A stretch of 64,000 bases of DNA, taken from NCBI GenBank assembly GCA_034660035.1, contig JAYEIJ010000062.1:11522-75521 (forward strand), read 5' to 3'. The notes beneath the pieces were generated by a model, which searched no databases, was not told where the DNA came from, and worked only from the letters and a program-made list of their open reading frames with translations. This document shows, in pieces, positions 48,555-51,068 of the stretch. How positions within the stretch are numbered: the first letter of the stretch is position 1; each line of letters starts with the position of its first letter. The DNA is from Actinomycetota bacterium. Lineage in GTDB: Bacteria > Actinomycetota > Acidimicrobiia > Spongiisociales > UBA5794. Both the position numbers and the translations under genes were made by a program.

Positions 48555-48560
48555 TACTCG

Positions 48561-48634
48561 TCGGGCTGGCCGGATTTGAACCGGCGACCTCTTGACCCCC
48601 AGTCAAGCGCGCTGCCATGCTGCGCCACAGCCCG
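48561..48634 (-). tRNA. tRNA-Pro (anticodon GGG)
   Basis: Reverse-complement CGGGCTGTGGCGCAGCATGGCAGCGCGCTTGACTGGGGGTCAAGAGGTCGCCGGTTCAAATCCGGCCAGCCCGA. 7-bp acceptor stem, D arm GCGC/GCGC, anticodon stem CTTGA/TCAAG with loop CTGGGGG, T arm GCCGG-TTCAAAT-CCGGC. No encoded CCA. Ends +-1. Confidence 0.8.
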
Positions 48635-48685
48635 GACTACGGCATCCTACCGTCGGCTTCGAAGAAGCCTCCGGAGGAGTCTCGC

Positions 48686-49264
48686 CTACTCTTCGGTTTC
48701 GAACTCTTCAACGGCGATCGCAGCCGCATCGGGGATACCGTCACCGTCGAGATCCACTGCAACGGCCTCAGCCACCACGGCCTCGACGTGATCGAGGGAT
48801 CCGTCACCGTCGAGGTCGATACCGGCCGCTTCGACCACGACCGTCTCCGCAACGTCCGGGAGTCCGTCCCCCGTCGTGTCATAGGCAACCGTCGTTGTCT
48901 CGGTGATCTCGATCGAGTCGGGCGTCCCGTCACCGTCGAGGTCCATGACGACCTGCTCGGTCACGACTCGCGTGCCGACGTCCGGTACGCCGTCGCCATC
49001 CACGTCAACCACGGTCTCAACGATCGTGGTCGTCTCGACGATGTCGGGAACTCCGTCTCCGTCGACATCGATCTCACGCACCTCGGTGCTGGTTACCGCG
49101 ACTCCGTCGGCGATCCCGTCGCCGTCGACGTCGATCTCGGAGGCCACTACGTCTGACATGACGATGCCGTCATCGGTCACACCGATCGTGATCTCTTCCA
49201 CTACGTCTTCGACGGCGATTTCTTCTTCGATCGTCTCGGACGCGTCATCGAATGTGGACTCCAT
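48686..49264 (-). CDS. hyper-acidic repeat protein with seven DxDGDGxPD (EF-hand-loop / thrombospondin-type-3-like) calcium-binding repeats
   Basis: 192 aa. Seven repeats of ~21 aa: DVDGDGIAD, DVDGDGVPDIVE, DVDGDGVPD, DLDGDGTPDSIE, DTTGDGLPDVAE, DLDGDGSLDHVE, DLDGDGIPD. No signal peptide. Very high Asp/Glu/Val/Thr content. Confidence 0.6.
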   Translation of the reverse strand: MESTFDDASETIEEEIAVEDVVEEITIGVTDDGIVMSDVVASEIDVDGDGIADGVAVTSTEVREIDVDGDGVPDIVETTTIVETVVDVDGDGVPDVGTRVVTEQVVMDLDGDGTPDSIEITETTTVAYDTTGDGLPDVAETVVVEAAGIDLDGDGSLDHVEAVVAEAVAVDLDGDGIPDAAAIAVEEFETEE

Positions 49265-49412
49265 CGGGTTACCTCTGTGGTTGGGAAACCGCAGCGTACC
49301 CGTGTGGTGGCGCCCATGTCACCGATGACCCACGTTGCGGGCGCATGATTCGATAGGATTGCCCGATGCACGTTCGTCCACGGCAAGCCACCGCACCTCC
49401 GCGGACACTCCC

Positions 49413-51068
49413 ATGACCGAATCCCCCGACTGGTTCACCCTCGTCATGGGGCTGACCGGTGGCCTGGCGATCTTCCTGATCGGCATGGATCGAACGGTCA
49501 GCGGGCTGAAGGGCATCGCGGGCAATCGCCTCCGATGGATCTTGTCTCATCTCACCGGGAACCGATGGTTCGGCGCAGCGACCGGCGCCGGGATCACCGC
49601 AATCATCCAGTCATCCAGCATCACGACCGTCGTCGTCGTGGGCCTTGTCTCTGCCAAGGCGATGACACTGACTCAATCGGTCGGAGTGATCTTCGGGGCG
49701 AACGTCGGCACGACGATCACGGCGCAGATCATCGCATTCAAGGTGACCAAGTACGCTCTCGCCGCGGTCGCTATCGGTTTCGCCATCGAGTTCTTCTCTC
49801 GATCGGAACTCGCCGAGCGCATCGGAAGAACCGTCCTGGGTCTCGGGTTGGTCTTCTTCGGCATGGCCGTGATGGGCCTCGCCATGGAACCCCTCACCGA
49901 GTACCAGCCCTTCCTCGATGCGATGGCAGCGATCTCGAACGTCTGGATCGGCGTCCTCATCGGTGCGGTCTTCACGGCCCTCATCCAGTCTTCGTCGGCG
50001 ACGACCGCCATCGTCATCGCCATGGCCGCGACCAACTTGATCTCACTCGAACTCGCCATCGCCTTCGTGCTCGGTGCCAACGTGGGCACCTCGGTCACCG
50101 CCCAACTCGCAGCCATCGGAAAGCCGGTCGAGGCGAAGCGAGTCGCGATGGTTCACACGCTCTTCAATGTGATCGGCGTCGTGATCTGGATACCGTTCGT
50201 ACCGTTCCTCGCCTCGGTAGCGATCCGCCTCTCCCCCGCCGGCGACGTGGCCCGGCAGGTTGCGTGGGCACACACGACGTTCAACGTGGCCAACCTCTTC
50301 ATCTTCATCTGGTTCACGACATGGTTCGCCAAGGCGGCGACCTTCCTCGTGAAAGACCGGAAAGCGGCAGATACCCCCGTCATCGAAGCCCGGTATCTCA
50401 GCGTGGAGTTGCTCGCGACGCCCTCCATCGCCCTCGATCGTGCCCGCATGGAGATCGCTCGGATGGGTACCCGGGTCCGCGACATGGTGATCGCAGGCGT
50501 ACCGGCAGCGGTTTCCGGCACAGAAACCGATCTCGCTGCCGTGGAAGCTTCCGACGACGAAGTGGACGAGCTTCACGCTCAGGTCGTGGCCTACCTCGGT
50601 CGTATCTCCGAACGCGATATCACCCGGGAACAGACCAACGAGCTCCTCGGACTCCTCGAGGCGGCGGGAGACATGGAGGCCATCGGCGATGCCGTGGAGA
50701 TCAACCTCGTCTCCGACGGCAGGCGCCGCCTGGAAGCGGGTCTCATGATCTCTCCCTCAACGGCCGCTGTCATCAACGACATCGCCACCGAGGTCATTAC
50801 GGCTGTCGACATCGCCGTGGGGGCCGTCGGTCGCAGCAGTCCGGAGGCCGCGCGTCGGGCGATCGACATGAAGCCCGAGATCACCGCCCGAACGACCCAC
50901 GCGATCGAGTACCAGCTCGAACGGCTGACGGCCGACGAGCCCGATCGCGTCGAGGCGTACCGCATCGAGTCGGACATCATCGAGGACCTGAAGCGCATCT
51001 ACTACTACGCGAAGCGGGCCGCCCGAGTCGGTGTTCCCGATGAGCAACCAACAGAGTCCCCCGAGTAG
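49413..51068 (+). CDS. Na+/phosphate cotransporter family protein (NptA-like) with C-terminal PhoU-like domains
   Basis: ORF 49335.., ATG 49413 (MTESPDWFTLVMGLTGG...). Duplicated Na_Pi_cotrans motifs (QSSSITT, QSSSATT). Soluble helical C-terminal domain. Confidence 0.85.
   Translation: MTESPDWFTLVMGLTGGLAIFLIGMDRTVSGLKGIAGNRLRWILSHLTGNRWFGAATGAGITAIIQSSSITTVVVVGLVSAKAMTLTQSVGVIFGANVGTTITAQIIAFKVTKYALAAVAIGFAIEFFSRSELAERIGRTVLGLGLVFFGMAVMGLAMEPLTEYQPFLDAMAAISNVWIGVLIGAVFTALIQSSSATTAIVIAMAATNLISLELAIAFVLGANVGTSVTAQLAAIGKPVEAKRVAMVHTLFNVIGVVIWIPFVPFLASVAIRLSPAGDVARQVAWAHTTFNVANLFIFIWFTTWFAKAATFLVKDRKAADTPVIEARYLSVELLATPSIALDRARMEIARMGTRVRDMVIAGVPAAVSGTETDLAAVEASDDEVDELHAQVVAYLGRISERDITREQTNELLGLLEAAGDMEAIGDAVEINLVSDGRRRLEAGLMISPSTAAVINDIATEVITAVDIAVGAVGRSSPEAARRAIDMKPEITARTTHAIEYQLERLTADEPDRVEAYRIESDIIEDLKRIYYYAKRAARVGVPDEQPTESPE

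What the first reader, a model, noticed from the sequence alone, without database searches (positions are those of the whole stretch)
48686..49264. Hyper-acidic cytoplasmic protein with seven EF-hand-loop/TSP3-like DxDGDGxPD repeats beside tRNA-Pro
The 192-aa protein has no signal peptide and is almost entirely D/E/V/T/G. It contains seven ~21-residue repeats, each starting D-x-D-G-D-G-x-(P)-D, with Glu at position 12 in four of them. That matches the 12-residue EF-hand Ca-binding loop (D1, D3, D5, G6, E12) and thrombospondin type-3-like repeats. Each loop is followed by a short Val/Thr-rich (beta-like) segment. Such calcium-buffer or scaffold-like repeat proteins are poorly characterised in Actinobacteria. 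It is transcribed divergently from a Na/Pi cotransporter-PhoU gene, so a role in divalent-cation or phosphate homeostasis is conceivable.
Basis: partly seen in the sequence, partly recalled or inferred. Interest (0 to 1): 0.55.

Follow-up and report, generated by a model that had tools for sequence, protein, structure and literature searches.

The report
Acidic protein of tandem calcium-loop hairpins
This is a real, conserved gene for a very acidic 192-residue protein made of seven calcium-binding loops, each followed by one beta-strand; it belongs to an unnamed family seen so far only in Acidimicrobiia, whose loops are of the integrin/FG-GAP type rather than EF-hands and whose cellular role is unknown.

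Summary
The ORF at 48686..49264(-) encodes 192 aa with 58 D+E, 2 R and no K. It carries seven D-x-[D/T]-G-D-G-x-x-D motifs at an exact 21-residue spacing. It has no signal peptide, lies next to tRNA-Pro(GGG) and is divergent from a Na/Pi-PhoU gene.

It is a real gene. Two Acidimicrobiia orthologues (83-86% identity) have the same length and no indels, with dN/dS of 0.06-0.10.

The classification needs correcting. Across 71 relatives the conserved residues are D1, D3, G4, D5, G6 and D9. Position 12 is Glu in only 31% of internal repeats. The only Pfam model above threshold is FG-GAP, and it matches only the loop part of that model. EF-hand, TSP_3 and Excalibur all score below threshold.

AlphaFold2 (pLDDT 83; above 90 in the repeat core) places one 12-residue strand between successive 9-residue loops. 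That gives an up-and-down antiparallel beta-meander. It is not helix-loop-helix, a propeller blade or a TSP3 wire. No solved structure matches it.

The suggested link to phosphate transport fails. The Na/Pi gene is reduced to a remnant in the closest orthologue's locus, and more distant family members have unrelated neighbours.

Best reading: a protein with no export signal, taken to be cytosolic, that binds several Ca2+ (or other divalent cations) and probably folds on binding. It is a new structural context for a known motif. Its physiological role is inferred, not shown.

The parts
48686..49264 (-). CDS of the 192-aa hyper-acidic repeat protein (the stop codon is 48686-48688)
   Evidence: ORF listing. 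Orthologues are 83-86% identical, of the same length, with dN/dS 0.06-0.10. 80 homologues have E<=1e-3.
49133..49264 (-). N-terminal acidic tail, aa 1-44 (net charge -15). It is modelled with low confidence apart from a first strand at aa 34-44, and contains a degenerate out-of-phase TDDG element at aa 30-38.
   Evidence: pLDDT is 48-77 over residues 1-40. Charge by segment. This is the least conserved part between orthologues, at 68-75% identity.
49070..49132 (-). Repeat 1, aa 45-65: loop DVDGDGIAD plus strand GVAVTSTEVREI
   Evidence: Motif position. AF2 strand E54-65.
49007..49069 (-). Repeat 2, aa 66-86: loop DVDGDGVPD plus strand IVETTTIVETVV (Glu at position 12)
   Evidence: AF2 strand E75-86. 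D66, D70 and D74 are invariant in the 71-sequence alignment.
48944..49006 (-). Repeat 3, aa 87-107: loop DVDGDGVPD plus strand VGTRVVTEQVVM
   Evidence: AF2 strand E96-107. D91 and G92 are invariant.
48881..48943 (-). Repeat 4, aa 108-128: loop DLDGDGTPD plus strand SIEITETTTVAY (Glu at position 12)
   Evidence: AF2 strand E117-128.
48818..48880 (-). Repeat 5, aa 129-149: variant loop DTTGDGLPD (Thr at position 3) plus strand VAETVVVEAAGI (Glu at position 12)
   Evidence: AF2 strand E138-149. The same DTTGDGLPD is kept in both orthologues.
48755..48817 (-). Repeat 6, aa 150-170: loop DLDGDGSLD plus strand HVEAVVAEAVAV (Glu at position 12). In the 50%-identical subfamily members this loop is degenerate (DPEDGNFKD).
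   Evidence: AF2 strand E159-170. P0001-P0004 sequences.
48689..48754 (-). Repeat 7 and acidic C-terminus, aa 171-192: loop DLDGDGIPD plus AAAIAVEEFETEE
   Evidence: AF2 strand E184-189 at lower confidence. This is the best FG-GAP stretch, aa 167-183.
49272..49275 (-). Shine-Dalgarno GAGG, 8 nt upstream of the ATG
   Evidence: Sequence. GAGGT is invariant in the three orthologous upstream regions.
49293..49298 (-). Candidate -10 element TACGCT (TACGAT in L001 and L002), 29-34 nt upstream of the ATG. This is inferred only.
   Evidence: GGTACG is a conserved block in an otherwise diverged upstream region. It fits the actinobacterial TANNNT -10 consensus (own knowledge). The sigma-70 consensus scan found nothing.

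Best explanation
The gene encodes a soluble protein with no signal peptide. Each 21-residue unit is a 9-residue Dx[DN]xDG-type Ca2+ loop followed by one 12-residue beta-strand. The proposed ligands are the Asp side chains at positions 1, 3, 5 and 9 and the backbone carbonyl of residue 7. This is the integrin / FG-GAP 'calcium-blade' hairpin geometry.

Successive strands pair antiparallel, so the seven loops are the hairpin turns of a nine-stranded up-and-down beta-meander. Loops 1, 3, 5 and 7 lie on one edge of the sheet and loops 2, 4 and 6 on the other. That gives up to seven cation sites in two rows.

The chain carries a net charge of -56 and has no Lys. The apo form is therefore expected to be expanded or unfolded, and cation binding to drive folding, as in RTX repeats (inference).

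The most likely physiological role is an intracellular, high-capacity, modest-affinity buffer or sensor for Ca2+ or other divalent cations (inference).

Shown here: the gene is real, the repeat anatomy, the conservation pattern, the predicted topology, and the absence of conserved gene partners. Inferred: metal binding itself, its stoichiometry, cation-induced folding, cytosolic location and the cellular role.
For: - Exact 21-residue period of seven motifs. This is far beyond chance: at most 1 motif in 100,000 shuffles, and no motif elsewhere in the window.
- Purifying selection with dN/dS 0.06-0.10 and no indels.
- Between orthologues the loops are the most conserved part, at 94% against 82-86% for strands and 68-75% for the tail. 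Within the protein the repeats share 73% identity in loops and only 19% in strands. So each repeat has its own conserved identity, as in a folded protein rather than a low-complexity region.
- TRF finds no 63-bp DNA repeat, so the array is old.
- Family logo from 194 internal repeats: D1 1.00, D3 0.92, G4 0.97, D5 0.99, G6 1.00, D9 0.97, and position 12 Glu only 0.31. This is the calcium-blade ligand pattern: Dx[DN]xDG plus a side chain two residues later (PMC3123361). [quoted passage not shown]
- Pfam FG-GAP scores 47.5 bits against a cut-off of 22.1, in seven stretches on profile positions 5-21. 59 of 71 relatives hit FG-GAP.
- AF2 gives pLDDT 83 and pTM 0.72, with more than 90 over residues 41-130. 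It predicts strands 34-44, 54-65, 75-86, 96-107, 117-128, 138-149 and 159-170, separated by exactly the 9-residue motifs.
- An independent model of a 120-aa relative gives the same strand-loop alternation plus a C-terminal helix, with pLDDT 85.
- Foldseek's nearest PDB hits are up-and-down antiparallel sheets: porins, and the capping-protein sheet at TMq 0.57.
- No family member examined has an N-terminal signal.
Against: - No metal-binding experiment exists, and AF2 does not model ions or electrostatics. A chain with net charge -56 may be disordered in vivo.
- MSAs of repeat proteins can inflate AF2 confidence.
- Dx[DN]xDG / FG-GAP-type loops are overwhelmingly found in extracellular proteins (PMC3123361). 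A cytosolic location would be unusual, and free cytosolic Ca2+ is far below the affinities typical of such loops, while Mg2+ competes (own knowledge).
- Gene neighbourhood gives no functional support at all.
- Repeat 5 has Thr at position 3 here, and repeat 6 is degenerate in the 50%-identical subfamily members, so fewer than seven sites may be functional.
Confidence: 0.55

Rival explanations
1. One reading: a tandem EF-hand-like or thrombospondin-type-3-like calcium protein. The 12-residue loops would use Glu12 as a bidentate ligand, and the protein would be functionally tied to the neighbouring Na/Pi-PhoU transporter in cation and phosphate homeostasis.
For: - Four of the seven loops have Glu at position 12.
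- Weak hits to EF-hand_5 (E=0.002) and to lanmodulin and CaBP chains.
- The last repeat of most 110-aa relatives is a canonical-looking DxDGDGx[IF]SxDE loop, with E12 in 80%, followed by a helix.
- NCBIfam TSP3-type models MtsD and CglD give E=7e-9 and 3e-7, but at 34 and 28 bits against cut-offs of 800 and 400.
- The Na/Pi-PhoU gene is divergent here and in L002.
Against: - All EF-hand, TSP_3 and Excalibur scores are below the Pfam gathering thresholds.
- Position 12 is not conserved in internal repeats, at 31% Glu.
- The loops are flanked by predicted strands, not helices.
- There are no Cys residues for TSP3 or Excalibur disulfides.
- The Na/Pi gene is deleted in L001 and absent from the other family loci.
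Confidence: 0.1
2. An exported or envelope-associated Ca2+-dependent structural or adhesive protein that leaves the cell by a non-classical route. It would fold only outside the cell, where Ca2+ is abundant, as RTX proteins do.
For: - Dx[DN]xDG / FG-GAP / TSP3-type loops are mostly extracellular (PMC3123361).
- The exhaustive search is dominated by large surface-type repeat proteins that share the loop.
- Extreme acidity and Ca-dependent folding resemble secreted RTX domains (own knowledge).
Against: - No Sec or Tat signal, TM segment, lipobox, sortase motif or RTX nonapeptide in this protein or in any of the small relatives inspected.
- No secretion-system genes lie nearby in any locus.
- The large hits share only the loop, in different linker contexts such as YHTNPL.
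Confidence: 0.15
3. A polyanionic decoy or mimic, such as a mimic of DNA or polyphosphate, or an electrostatic chaperone. Its function would lie in the regular array of surface carboxylates, and the DxDGDG turns would be merely structural hairpin formers.
For: - Net charge -56 with no Lys.
- Glu-rich strands and tails beyond the loops: -13 in the strands and -15 in the N-tail.
- Small, stand-alone gene with no operon partners.
Against: - The most conserved residues are exactly the metal-ligand and Gly positions of a known Ca2+ loop. The scattered Glu residues vary.
- No nucleic-acid-related neighbours or domains.
- This reading is not exclusive of cation binding.
Confidence: 0.07
4. Not a gene: a chance open frame, or the shadow of a gene on the opposite strand, in GC-rich DNA.
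For: Overlapping ORFs of 141-179 aa exist on the + strand, as is common at 63% GC.
Against: - dN/dS is 0.06-0.10, with 70-74% of differences at third codon positions in this frame, and the 192-codon length is conserved.
- The Shine-Dalgarno is conserved.
- There are dozens of protein-level relatives.
- GC by codon position is 0.74/0.37/0.76, typical of a coding frame.
Confidence: 0.01

Closest known systems
Calcium blades of FG-GAP / integrin-type beta-propellers (integrin alpha, Psathyrella PVL lectin, B. subtilis rhamnogalacturonan lyase YesW, PilY1)
   Same: The same 9-residue loop, Dx[DN]xDG plus an acidic ligand two residues later, set as a beta-hairpin turn with hydrophobic residues on both flanks. 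It is the only Pfam family scored above threshold (FG-GAP, 47.5 bits). PVL lectin loops are the only non-EF-hand hits in the PDB profile search.
   Different: Only profile positions 5-21 of 37 are matched. There are no FG or GAP motifs. The period is 21 aa (19 in most relatives), which is too short for a four-stranded blade. AF2 predicts one strand per repeat and no propeller. There is no signal peptide. The whole protein is only 192 aa.
EF-hand proteins (calmodulin, actinobacterial calerythrin/CabB-type, lanmodulin)
   Same: The first six loop residues are DxDxDG. Glu12 is present in four loops. The protein is small, acidic and has no signal peptide, like cytosolic EF-hand buffers. The terminal repeat of most relatives looks like a genuine EF loop followed by a helix.
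   Different: No helix-loop-helix and no paired-hand domain. Position 12 is not conserved. All EF-hand Pfam models score below threshold. PDB sequence hits have E>=0.005 and cover loops only.
Thrombospondin type-3 repeats and bacterial TSP3-like repeats (OmpA-family, MtsD, CglD)
   Same: Tandem Asp-rich DxDxDGxxD units with a period of about 21-23 residues. The large TSP3-like proteins dominate the exhaustive search.
   Different: TSP_3 scores E=1. There are no Cys residues. The linkers here are V/T/E beta-strands, not the '(Y)HTNPL' or Cys-containing wire segments. NCBIfam scores are 34 bits against a cut-off of 800. Those proteins are secreted or outer-membrane proteins.
RTX beta-roll repeats (GGxGxDxUx) and the 19-residue Ca2+-bound repeats of Marinomonas MpIBP region IV
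   Same: This is a similarity of working principle, from my own knowledge. Both are short tandem repeats in which every turn between beta-strands holds a Ca2+. Both are hyper-acidic chains expected to fold only when Ca2+ is bound, with rows of ions along the edges.
   Different: The motif differs. Those are parallel beta-roll or beta-helix folds, whereas an antiparallel meander is predicted here. No T1SS signal. No sequence similarity was detected.
Pfam DUF6802 (PF20615), an uncharacterised family
   Same: It is the only whole-protein-type Pfam family with a near-threshold hit: 26.4 bits against a cut-off of 27. 19 of 71 relatives hit it weakly.
   Different: No family member reaches the cut-off. 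Only profile positions 13-49 of 102 are matched, about two repeats' worth. Nothing is published on it.

Membership tests
EF-hand | 12-residue loop with a conserved bidentate Glu (or Asp) at position 12 | tested here: not met
   Glu12 is present in 4 of 7 loops here but in only 31% of 194 internal repeats of the family. D9 is 97% conserved.
EF-hand | Helix-loop-helix: the loop is flanked by an entering and an exiting alpha-helix, usually in paired hands | tested here: not met
   AF2 puts 12-residue beta-strands on both sides of every loop, with pLDDT above 90. The same holds in a 120-aa relative, except for its last loop.
EF-hand | Score above the Pfam gathering threshold for an EF-hand model | tested here: not met
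   EF-hand_5 18.0 against 25.9; EF-hand_1 15.5 against 25.4; EF-hand_6 12.7 against 25; EF-hand_7 7.2 against 30.
Thrombospondin type-3 repeat (TSP_3) | Match to the TSP_3 profile | tested here: not met
   9.6 bits against a cut-off of 25, E=1. NCBIfam MtsD scores 34 against 800 and CglD 28 against 400.
Thrombospondin type-3 repeat (TSP_3) | Disulfide-bonded Cys residues, with the chain wrapped around Ca2+ and little regular secondary structure | tested here: not met
   No Cys in the protein. AF2 predicts regular beta-strands between loops.
FG-GAP / integrin-type beta-propeller blade | Dx[DN]xDG Ca2+ loop with an extra acidic ligand two residues later, as a beta-hairpin between strands | tested here: met
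   Seven DxDGDGxxD loops. Family conservation of D1/D3/G4/D5/G6/D9 is at least 92%. FG-GAP scores 47.5 bits against 22.1. Loops lie between strands in AF2. The definition is from PMC3123361 and PMC3192720.
FG-GAP / integrin-type beta-propeller blade | Four-stranded blade with the FG...GAP/Cage consensus at the opposite end, with blades closing into a 7- or 8-bladed propeller | tested here: not met
   No 'FG' or 'GAP' in the sequence. Only profile positions 5-21 of 37 are matched. The period is 21 aa with one strand per repeat. Foldseek finds no significant propeller match.
Excalibur | DxDxDGxxCE motif with a conserved Cys, in an extracellular domain | tested here: not met
   12.3 bits against 22, E=0.23. 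No Cys. No signal peptide.
RTX / hemolysin-type calcium-binding repeat | GGxGxDxUx nonapeptide repeats and a C-terminal T1SS signal | tested here: not met
   No Pfam hit to the hemolysin-type Ca-binding repeat at E<=10. The motif is absent from the sequence.
DUF6802 (PF20615) | Score above the Pfam gathering threshold over most of the 102-position profile | tested here: inconclusive
   26.4 bits against 27, with positions 13-49 of 102 matched. None of the 71 relatives does better (best E is 7.2e-6, from this protein).
Functional Ca2+-binding protein (any kind) | Measured, saturable Ca2+ binding at the predicted sites | not testable with these tools
   Needs ITC, 45Ca overlay or a structure with ions. 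AF2 as run here does not model ions.

The most novel reading that the evidence does not exclude
The family is a previously unrecognised fold class: a Ca2+-templated, single-layer antiparallel beta-sheet in which every hairpin turn is a metal site. That gives two parallel rows of cations roughly one nanometre apart, bordering flat Thr/Val-rich faces. Such an object could act as a ruler that binds a periodic partner rather than as a simple buffer. Candidate partners are polyphosphate or Ca-phosphate granules, a mineral or ice lattice, or a polyanionic wall polymer. It would also be a rare intracellular use of the integrin-type calcium loop, and a natural minimal scaffold for metal (for example lanthanide) capture.
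Probability: 0.1. Interest if true: 0.75.

Novelty: new variant of a known kind. Interest (0 to 1): 0.42.

Why it matters
The Dx[DN]xDG calcium loop is known in more than a dozen structural contexts (PMC3123361). None of them is a protein made only of such loops, each joined to the next by a single beta-strand.

If the prediction holds, this family would be the minimal 'hairpin-only' form of the integrin/FG-GAP calcium blade. It would be a candidate intermediate, or an offshoot, in the evolution of calcium blades. It would also be one of the few candidate intracellular high-capacity Ca2+ binders in bacteria, where calcium buffering is poorly understood.

Its regular, short, Cys-free repeats would make it an attractive scaffold for engineered metal binding.

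The finding also corrects an annotation trap. Pfam reports 'FG-GAP' for these proteins, although they cannot form propeller blades.

Tried and rejected
- **Gene-neighbourhood inference.** All-against-all BLAST of ORFs from 21 family loci plus the window found shared neighbours only among the closest relatives. Three look-ups of 110-aa members and a Pfam scan of L004, L007 and L014 neighbours gave unrelated genes: isochorismatase, GSH peroxidase, diadenylate cyclase, PPDK, EamA, hydrolases. I rejected this as a source of function.
- **Na/Pi link.** tblastn shows that only a 28-aa remnant of the transporter remains in L001. Rejected.
- **Riboswitch or regulatory RNA upstream.** Rfam at E<=1 finds only the tRNA. 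The sigma-70 promoter and intrinsic-terminator scans found nothing.
- **DNA-level tandem repeat.** TRF finds only a weak 6-bp CCGTCG run and no 63-bp period. So this is not a recent slippage product.
- **Solved relatives by sequence.** phmmer and a profile search against the PDB gave nothing significant, only loop-level hits.
- **Solved relatives by fold.** Foldseek against the PDB gave no hit with E<=1e-3 for either model.
- **Literature.** Searches for DUF6802, DxDGDG/DVDGDG/'calcium blade', and Acidimicrobiia with calcium-binding found no description of this family.
- **Non-Acidimicrobiia loci from the genome scan (L017-L032).** These are large surface, TSP3-type or WXG-like proteins that share only the loop. 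I did not count them as family members.
Full report
**1. What is at the coordinates**

The ORF 48686..49264 on the minus strand is open for 192 codons from an ATG. A GAGG Shine-Dalgarno lies 8 nt upstream. tRNA-Pro(GGG) follows on the same strand at 48560..48634. The divergent gene 49335..51068(+) is a Na_Pi_cotrans + PhoU protein. The other neighbours are a metallo-beta-lactamase-fold protein, an ATC_hydrolase-family protein and a carboxyl transferase.

The product has 33 Asp, 25 Glu, 35 Val, 21 Thr and 19 Gly. It has only two Arg and no Lys, Asn, Cys or Trp. Net charge is -56 and computed pI is about 4.

Seven motifs D-x-[D/T]-G-D-G-x-x-D begin at residues 45, 66, 87, 108, 129, 150 and 171, an exact 21-residue period. 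Pro is at position 8 in five loops. The N-terminus is acidic and has neither a basic n-region nor a hydrophobic core, so there is no Sec or Tat signal.

**2. Is it more than chance, and is it a gene?**

Shuffling this already extreme composition 100,000 times never produced more than one motif; one motif appeared in 0.2% of shuffles. The motif occurs nowhere else in any frame of the 64-kb window.

A scan of one genome per species found two orthologues in Acidimicrobiia MAGs: L001 at 86% and L002 at 83% identity. Both are exactly 192 codons with no indels. Differences concentrate at third codon positions (19/14/93 and 22/12/79), and dN/dS is 0.06-0.10. The 'not coding' refutation fails. This is a gene under strong purifying selection.

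Tandem Repeats Finder sees no 63-bp period. Within the protein the repeats are 73% identical in the loops but only 19% in the strands. Yet each repeat is 82-94% conserved between orthologues. The array is therefore old and each unit has its own conserved identity. That is the behaviour of a folded repeat protein, not of a low-complexity tract.

**3. The family**

A word-indexed search of 5.8 billion proteins returned 80 relatives. Nearly all are 105-200 aa, acidic, lack a signal peptide and are named 'hypothetical protein'. The few that carry an organism name are from Ilumatobacteraceae, Acidimicrobiales or Actinomycetota MAGs.

Genome loci add Microthrixaceae, Iamiaceae, Acidimicrobiaceae and the cultured Aquihabitans sp. 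McL0605.

The commonest form is about 110 aa with four repeats of period 19. Its consensus is ...ETExxDVDGDGxxDxVxETTTTxxDVDGDG...AVRxDL. The window protein belongs to a subfamily with seven repeats of period 21. That architecture is kept down to about 50% identity in P0001-P0004, P0091, L003 and L004, although loop 6 is degenerate there.

The exhaustive HMMER search found 845 proteins with E<=1e-3. It is dominated by very large proteins. On inspection these share only the loop, set in other linker contexts: TSP3-like 'DTDGDGLSDYEEVKIYHTNPL', M23-peptidase-linked 'GFDLDGDGKPDI...', and others. Within the data I could reach, the small stand-alone form appears only in Acidimicrobiia.

**4. Which kind of calcium loop?**

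I built a logo from 194 internal repeats of 71 family members:

| Loop position | Residue | Frequency |
|---|---|---|
| 1 | Asp | 1.00 |
| 3 | Asp | 0.92 |
| 4 | Gly | 0.97 |
| 5 | Asp | 0.99 |
| 6 | Gly | 1.00 |
| 9 | Asp | 0.97 |
| 12 | Glu | 0.31 |

The pattern is Dx[DN]xDG plus an acidic ligand two residues after the motif. Rigden et al. describe this pattern for the 'calcium blade' of integrin-type propellers (PMC3123361). [quoted passage not shown]

Pfam agrees. FG-GAP is the only model above its gathering score (47.5 against 22.1 bits, seven stretches), followed by FG-GAP_3. EF-hand_5 (18.0 against 25.9), EF-hand_1, TSP_3 (9.6 against 25, E=1) and Excalibur (E=0.23) are all below threshold. 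59 of 71 relatives hit FG-GAP. The NCBIfam TSP3-type models score 28-34 bits against cut-offs of 400-800.

The FG-GAP match covers only profile positions 5-21 of 37, which is the loop and its flanks. The protein has no FG or GAP motif. A 21-residue period cannot hold a four-stranded blade. So the loop is of the FG-GAP type, but the protein is not an FG-GAP propeller.

DUF6802 scores just under threshold (26.4 against 27) over about a third of its profile. I leave this as inconclusive. Nothing is published on it.

In most 110-aa relatives the last repeat does look like a true EF-hand loop, DxDGDGx[IF][SD]xDE, with E12 in 80% and a following helix. The window protein's last repeat (DLDGDGIPDAAA) does not.

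**5. Predicted structure**

AlphaFold2 with the 71-sequence alignment gives mean pLDDT 83 and pTM 0.72, with pLDDT above 90 over residues 41-130. It predicts strands at 34-44, 54-65, 75-86, 96-107, 117-128, 138-149 and 159-170. Each pair of strands is separated by exactly the nine motif residues.

A separate model of the 120-aa relative P0023 (pLDDT 85) gives five strands with the same alternation plus a C-terminal helix.

Foldseek against the PDB found no match with E<=1e-3 for either model. The nearest hits are up-and-down antiparallel sheets. For the window protein these are 12-stranded porins and FapF at TMq about 0.3. For the short form it is the five-stranded sheet plus helix of actin-capping protein alpha, at TMq 0.57 and rmsd 2.9 Å.

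The topology is therefore a beta-meander whose hairpin turns are the calcium loops. Odd-numbered loops lie on one edge and even-numbered loops on the other.

Assuming hairpin register, one face of the sheet is more hydrophobic: mean Kyte-Doolittle 1.45, with 4 of 36 residues charged. The other face scores 0.5, with 10 of 36 charged. This leaves room for dimerisation or curling.

**6. Context and the phosphate idea**

The tRNA-Pro neighbour is kept in L001 and L002, and in L007 it lies on the other side. It is absent from the other 18 family loci.

The Na/Pi-PhoU gene is present in L002 at 75% identity. In L001 it is reduced to a 28-residue remnant next to the intact, selected acidic gene.

The 55%-identical subfamily member in L004 sits between an EamA transporter and an alpha/beta hydrolase. 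Three 110-aa members have entirely different neighbours. An all-against-all comparison found no neighbour shared beyond the closest relatives.

No riboswitch or other Rfam element lies upstream.

The gene is a stand-alone unit, and the proposed coupling to phosphate transport is not supported.

**7. Most likely mechanism**

Shown here: a conserved, signal-less, hyper-acidic protein made of seven FG-GAP-type DxDxDGxxD loops alternating with single beta-strands, predicted with high confidence to form an antiparallel meander.

Inferred:
- Each loop binds one Ca2+ through Asp1, Asp3, Asp5, the residue-7 carbonyl and Asp9, giving up to seven ions in two rows.
- A chain with net charge -56 and no Lys is probably expanded without cations and folds on binding, as RTX repeats do. 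Even seven Ca2+ leave about -42, so further low-affinity cation binding is likely.
- The physiological role is then a high-capacity, modest-affinity intracellular buffer or sensor for Ca2+ or other divalent cations.

The main weakness is that such loops are typically extracellular, and their affinities are typically far above cytosolic free Ca2+. Export by an unknown route remains a serious rival. A polyanion-mimic role is a minor one.

**8. Novelty and verdict**

The motif and its chemistry are well known. What is new is the context: a protein family consisting only of calcium hairpins, with no blade, helix pair or disulfide wire, no signal peptide, no Pfam family of its own, no solved relative and no literature.

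I classify it as a new variant of a known kind. Interest is moderate. It is a clean target for calcium-protein biochemistry and a correction to the automatic 'FG-GAP' label. There is no functional evidence, and nothing here challenges current understanding.

Noticed in passing
window 48655-48678 (minus strand), between the stop codon and tRNA-Pro: Two overlapping GC-rich palindromes, CCTCCGGAGG and GGCTTCnnCGAAGCC, are conserved in L001 and L002. They have no T-tract and were not called as a terminator. They may be a processing or pausing hairpin between the acidic gene and the tRNA, and they suggest possible co-transcription.
   Followed up: partly
L001 5771-5854: In the closest orthologous locus, the Na/Pi-PhoU transporter gene survives only as a remnant of about 28 codons of its 5' end. 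This remnant lies directly beside the carboxyl-transferase gene, so it is a recent deletion.
   Followed up: yes
P0103 (460 aa, metagenomic): An M23-peptidase-like N-terminal region is followed by about ten tandem 22-23-residue units 'GFDLDGDGKPDIxPxFVRxxxxx'. This is a second, basic-residue-rich example of an array that repeats only the calcium hairpin, in a different protein context.
   Followed up: no
L024, L025, L026 (Micromonospora, Dactylosporangium): Proteins of 630-840 aa with a helical N-terminal region, repeated 'TGVDVNGDGKPDI' units and Pro/Gly-rich C-termini. They share only the loop with the window protein. Their function is unknown.
   Followed up: no
window 48686-49264: The exact protein sequence is absent from the 15-billion-protein collection. 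The best database relatives outside the two MAG orthologues are only about 50% identical. The window's organism is therefore a poorly sampled Acidimicrobiia lineage.
   Followed up: partly
P0004 (201 aa): This subfamily member carries an internal insertion, 'REHDLAFLPESLMIRREHDLDGDG', that duplicates the REHDL junction. It is either a recent partial duplication or an assembly artefact within the repeat array.
   Followed up: no
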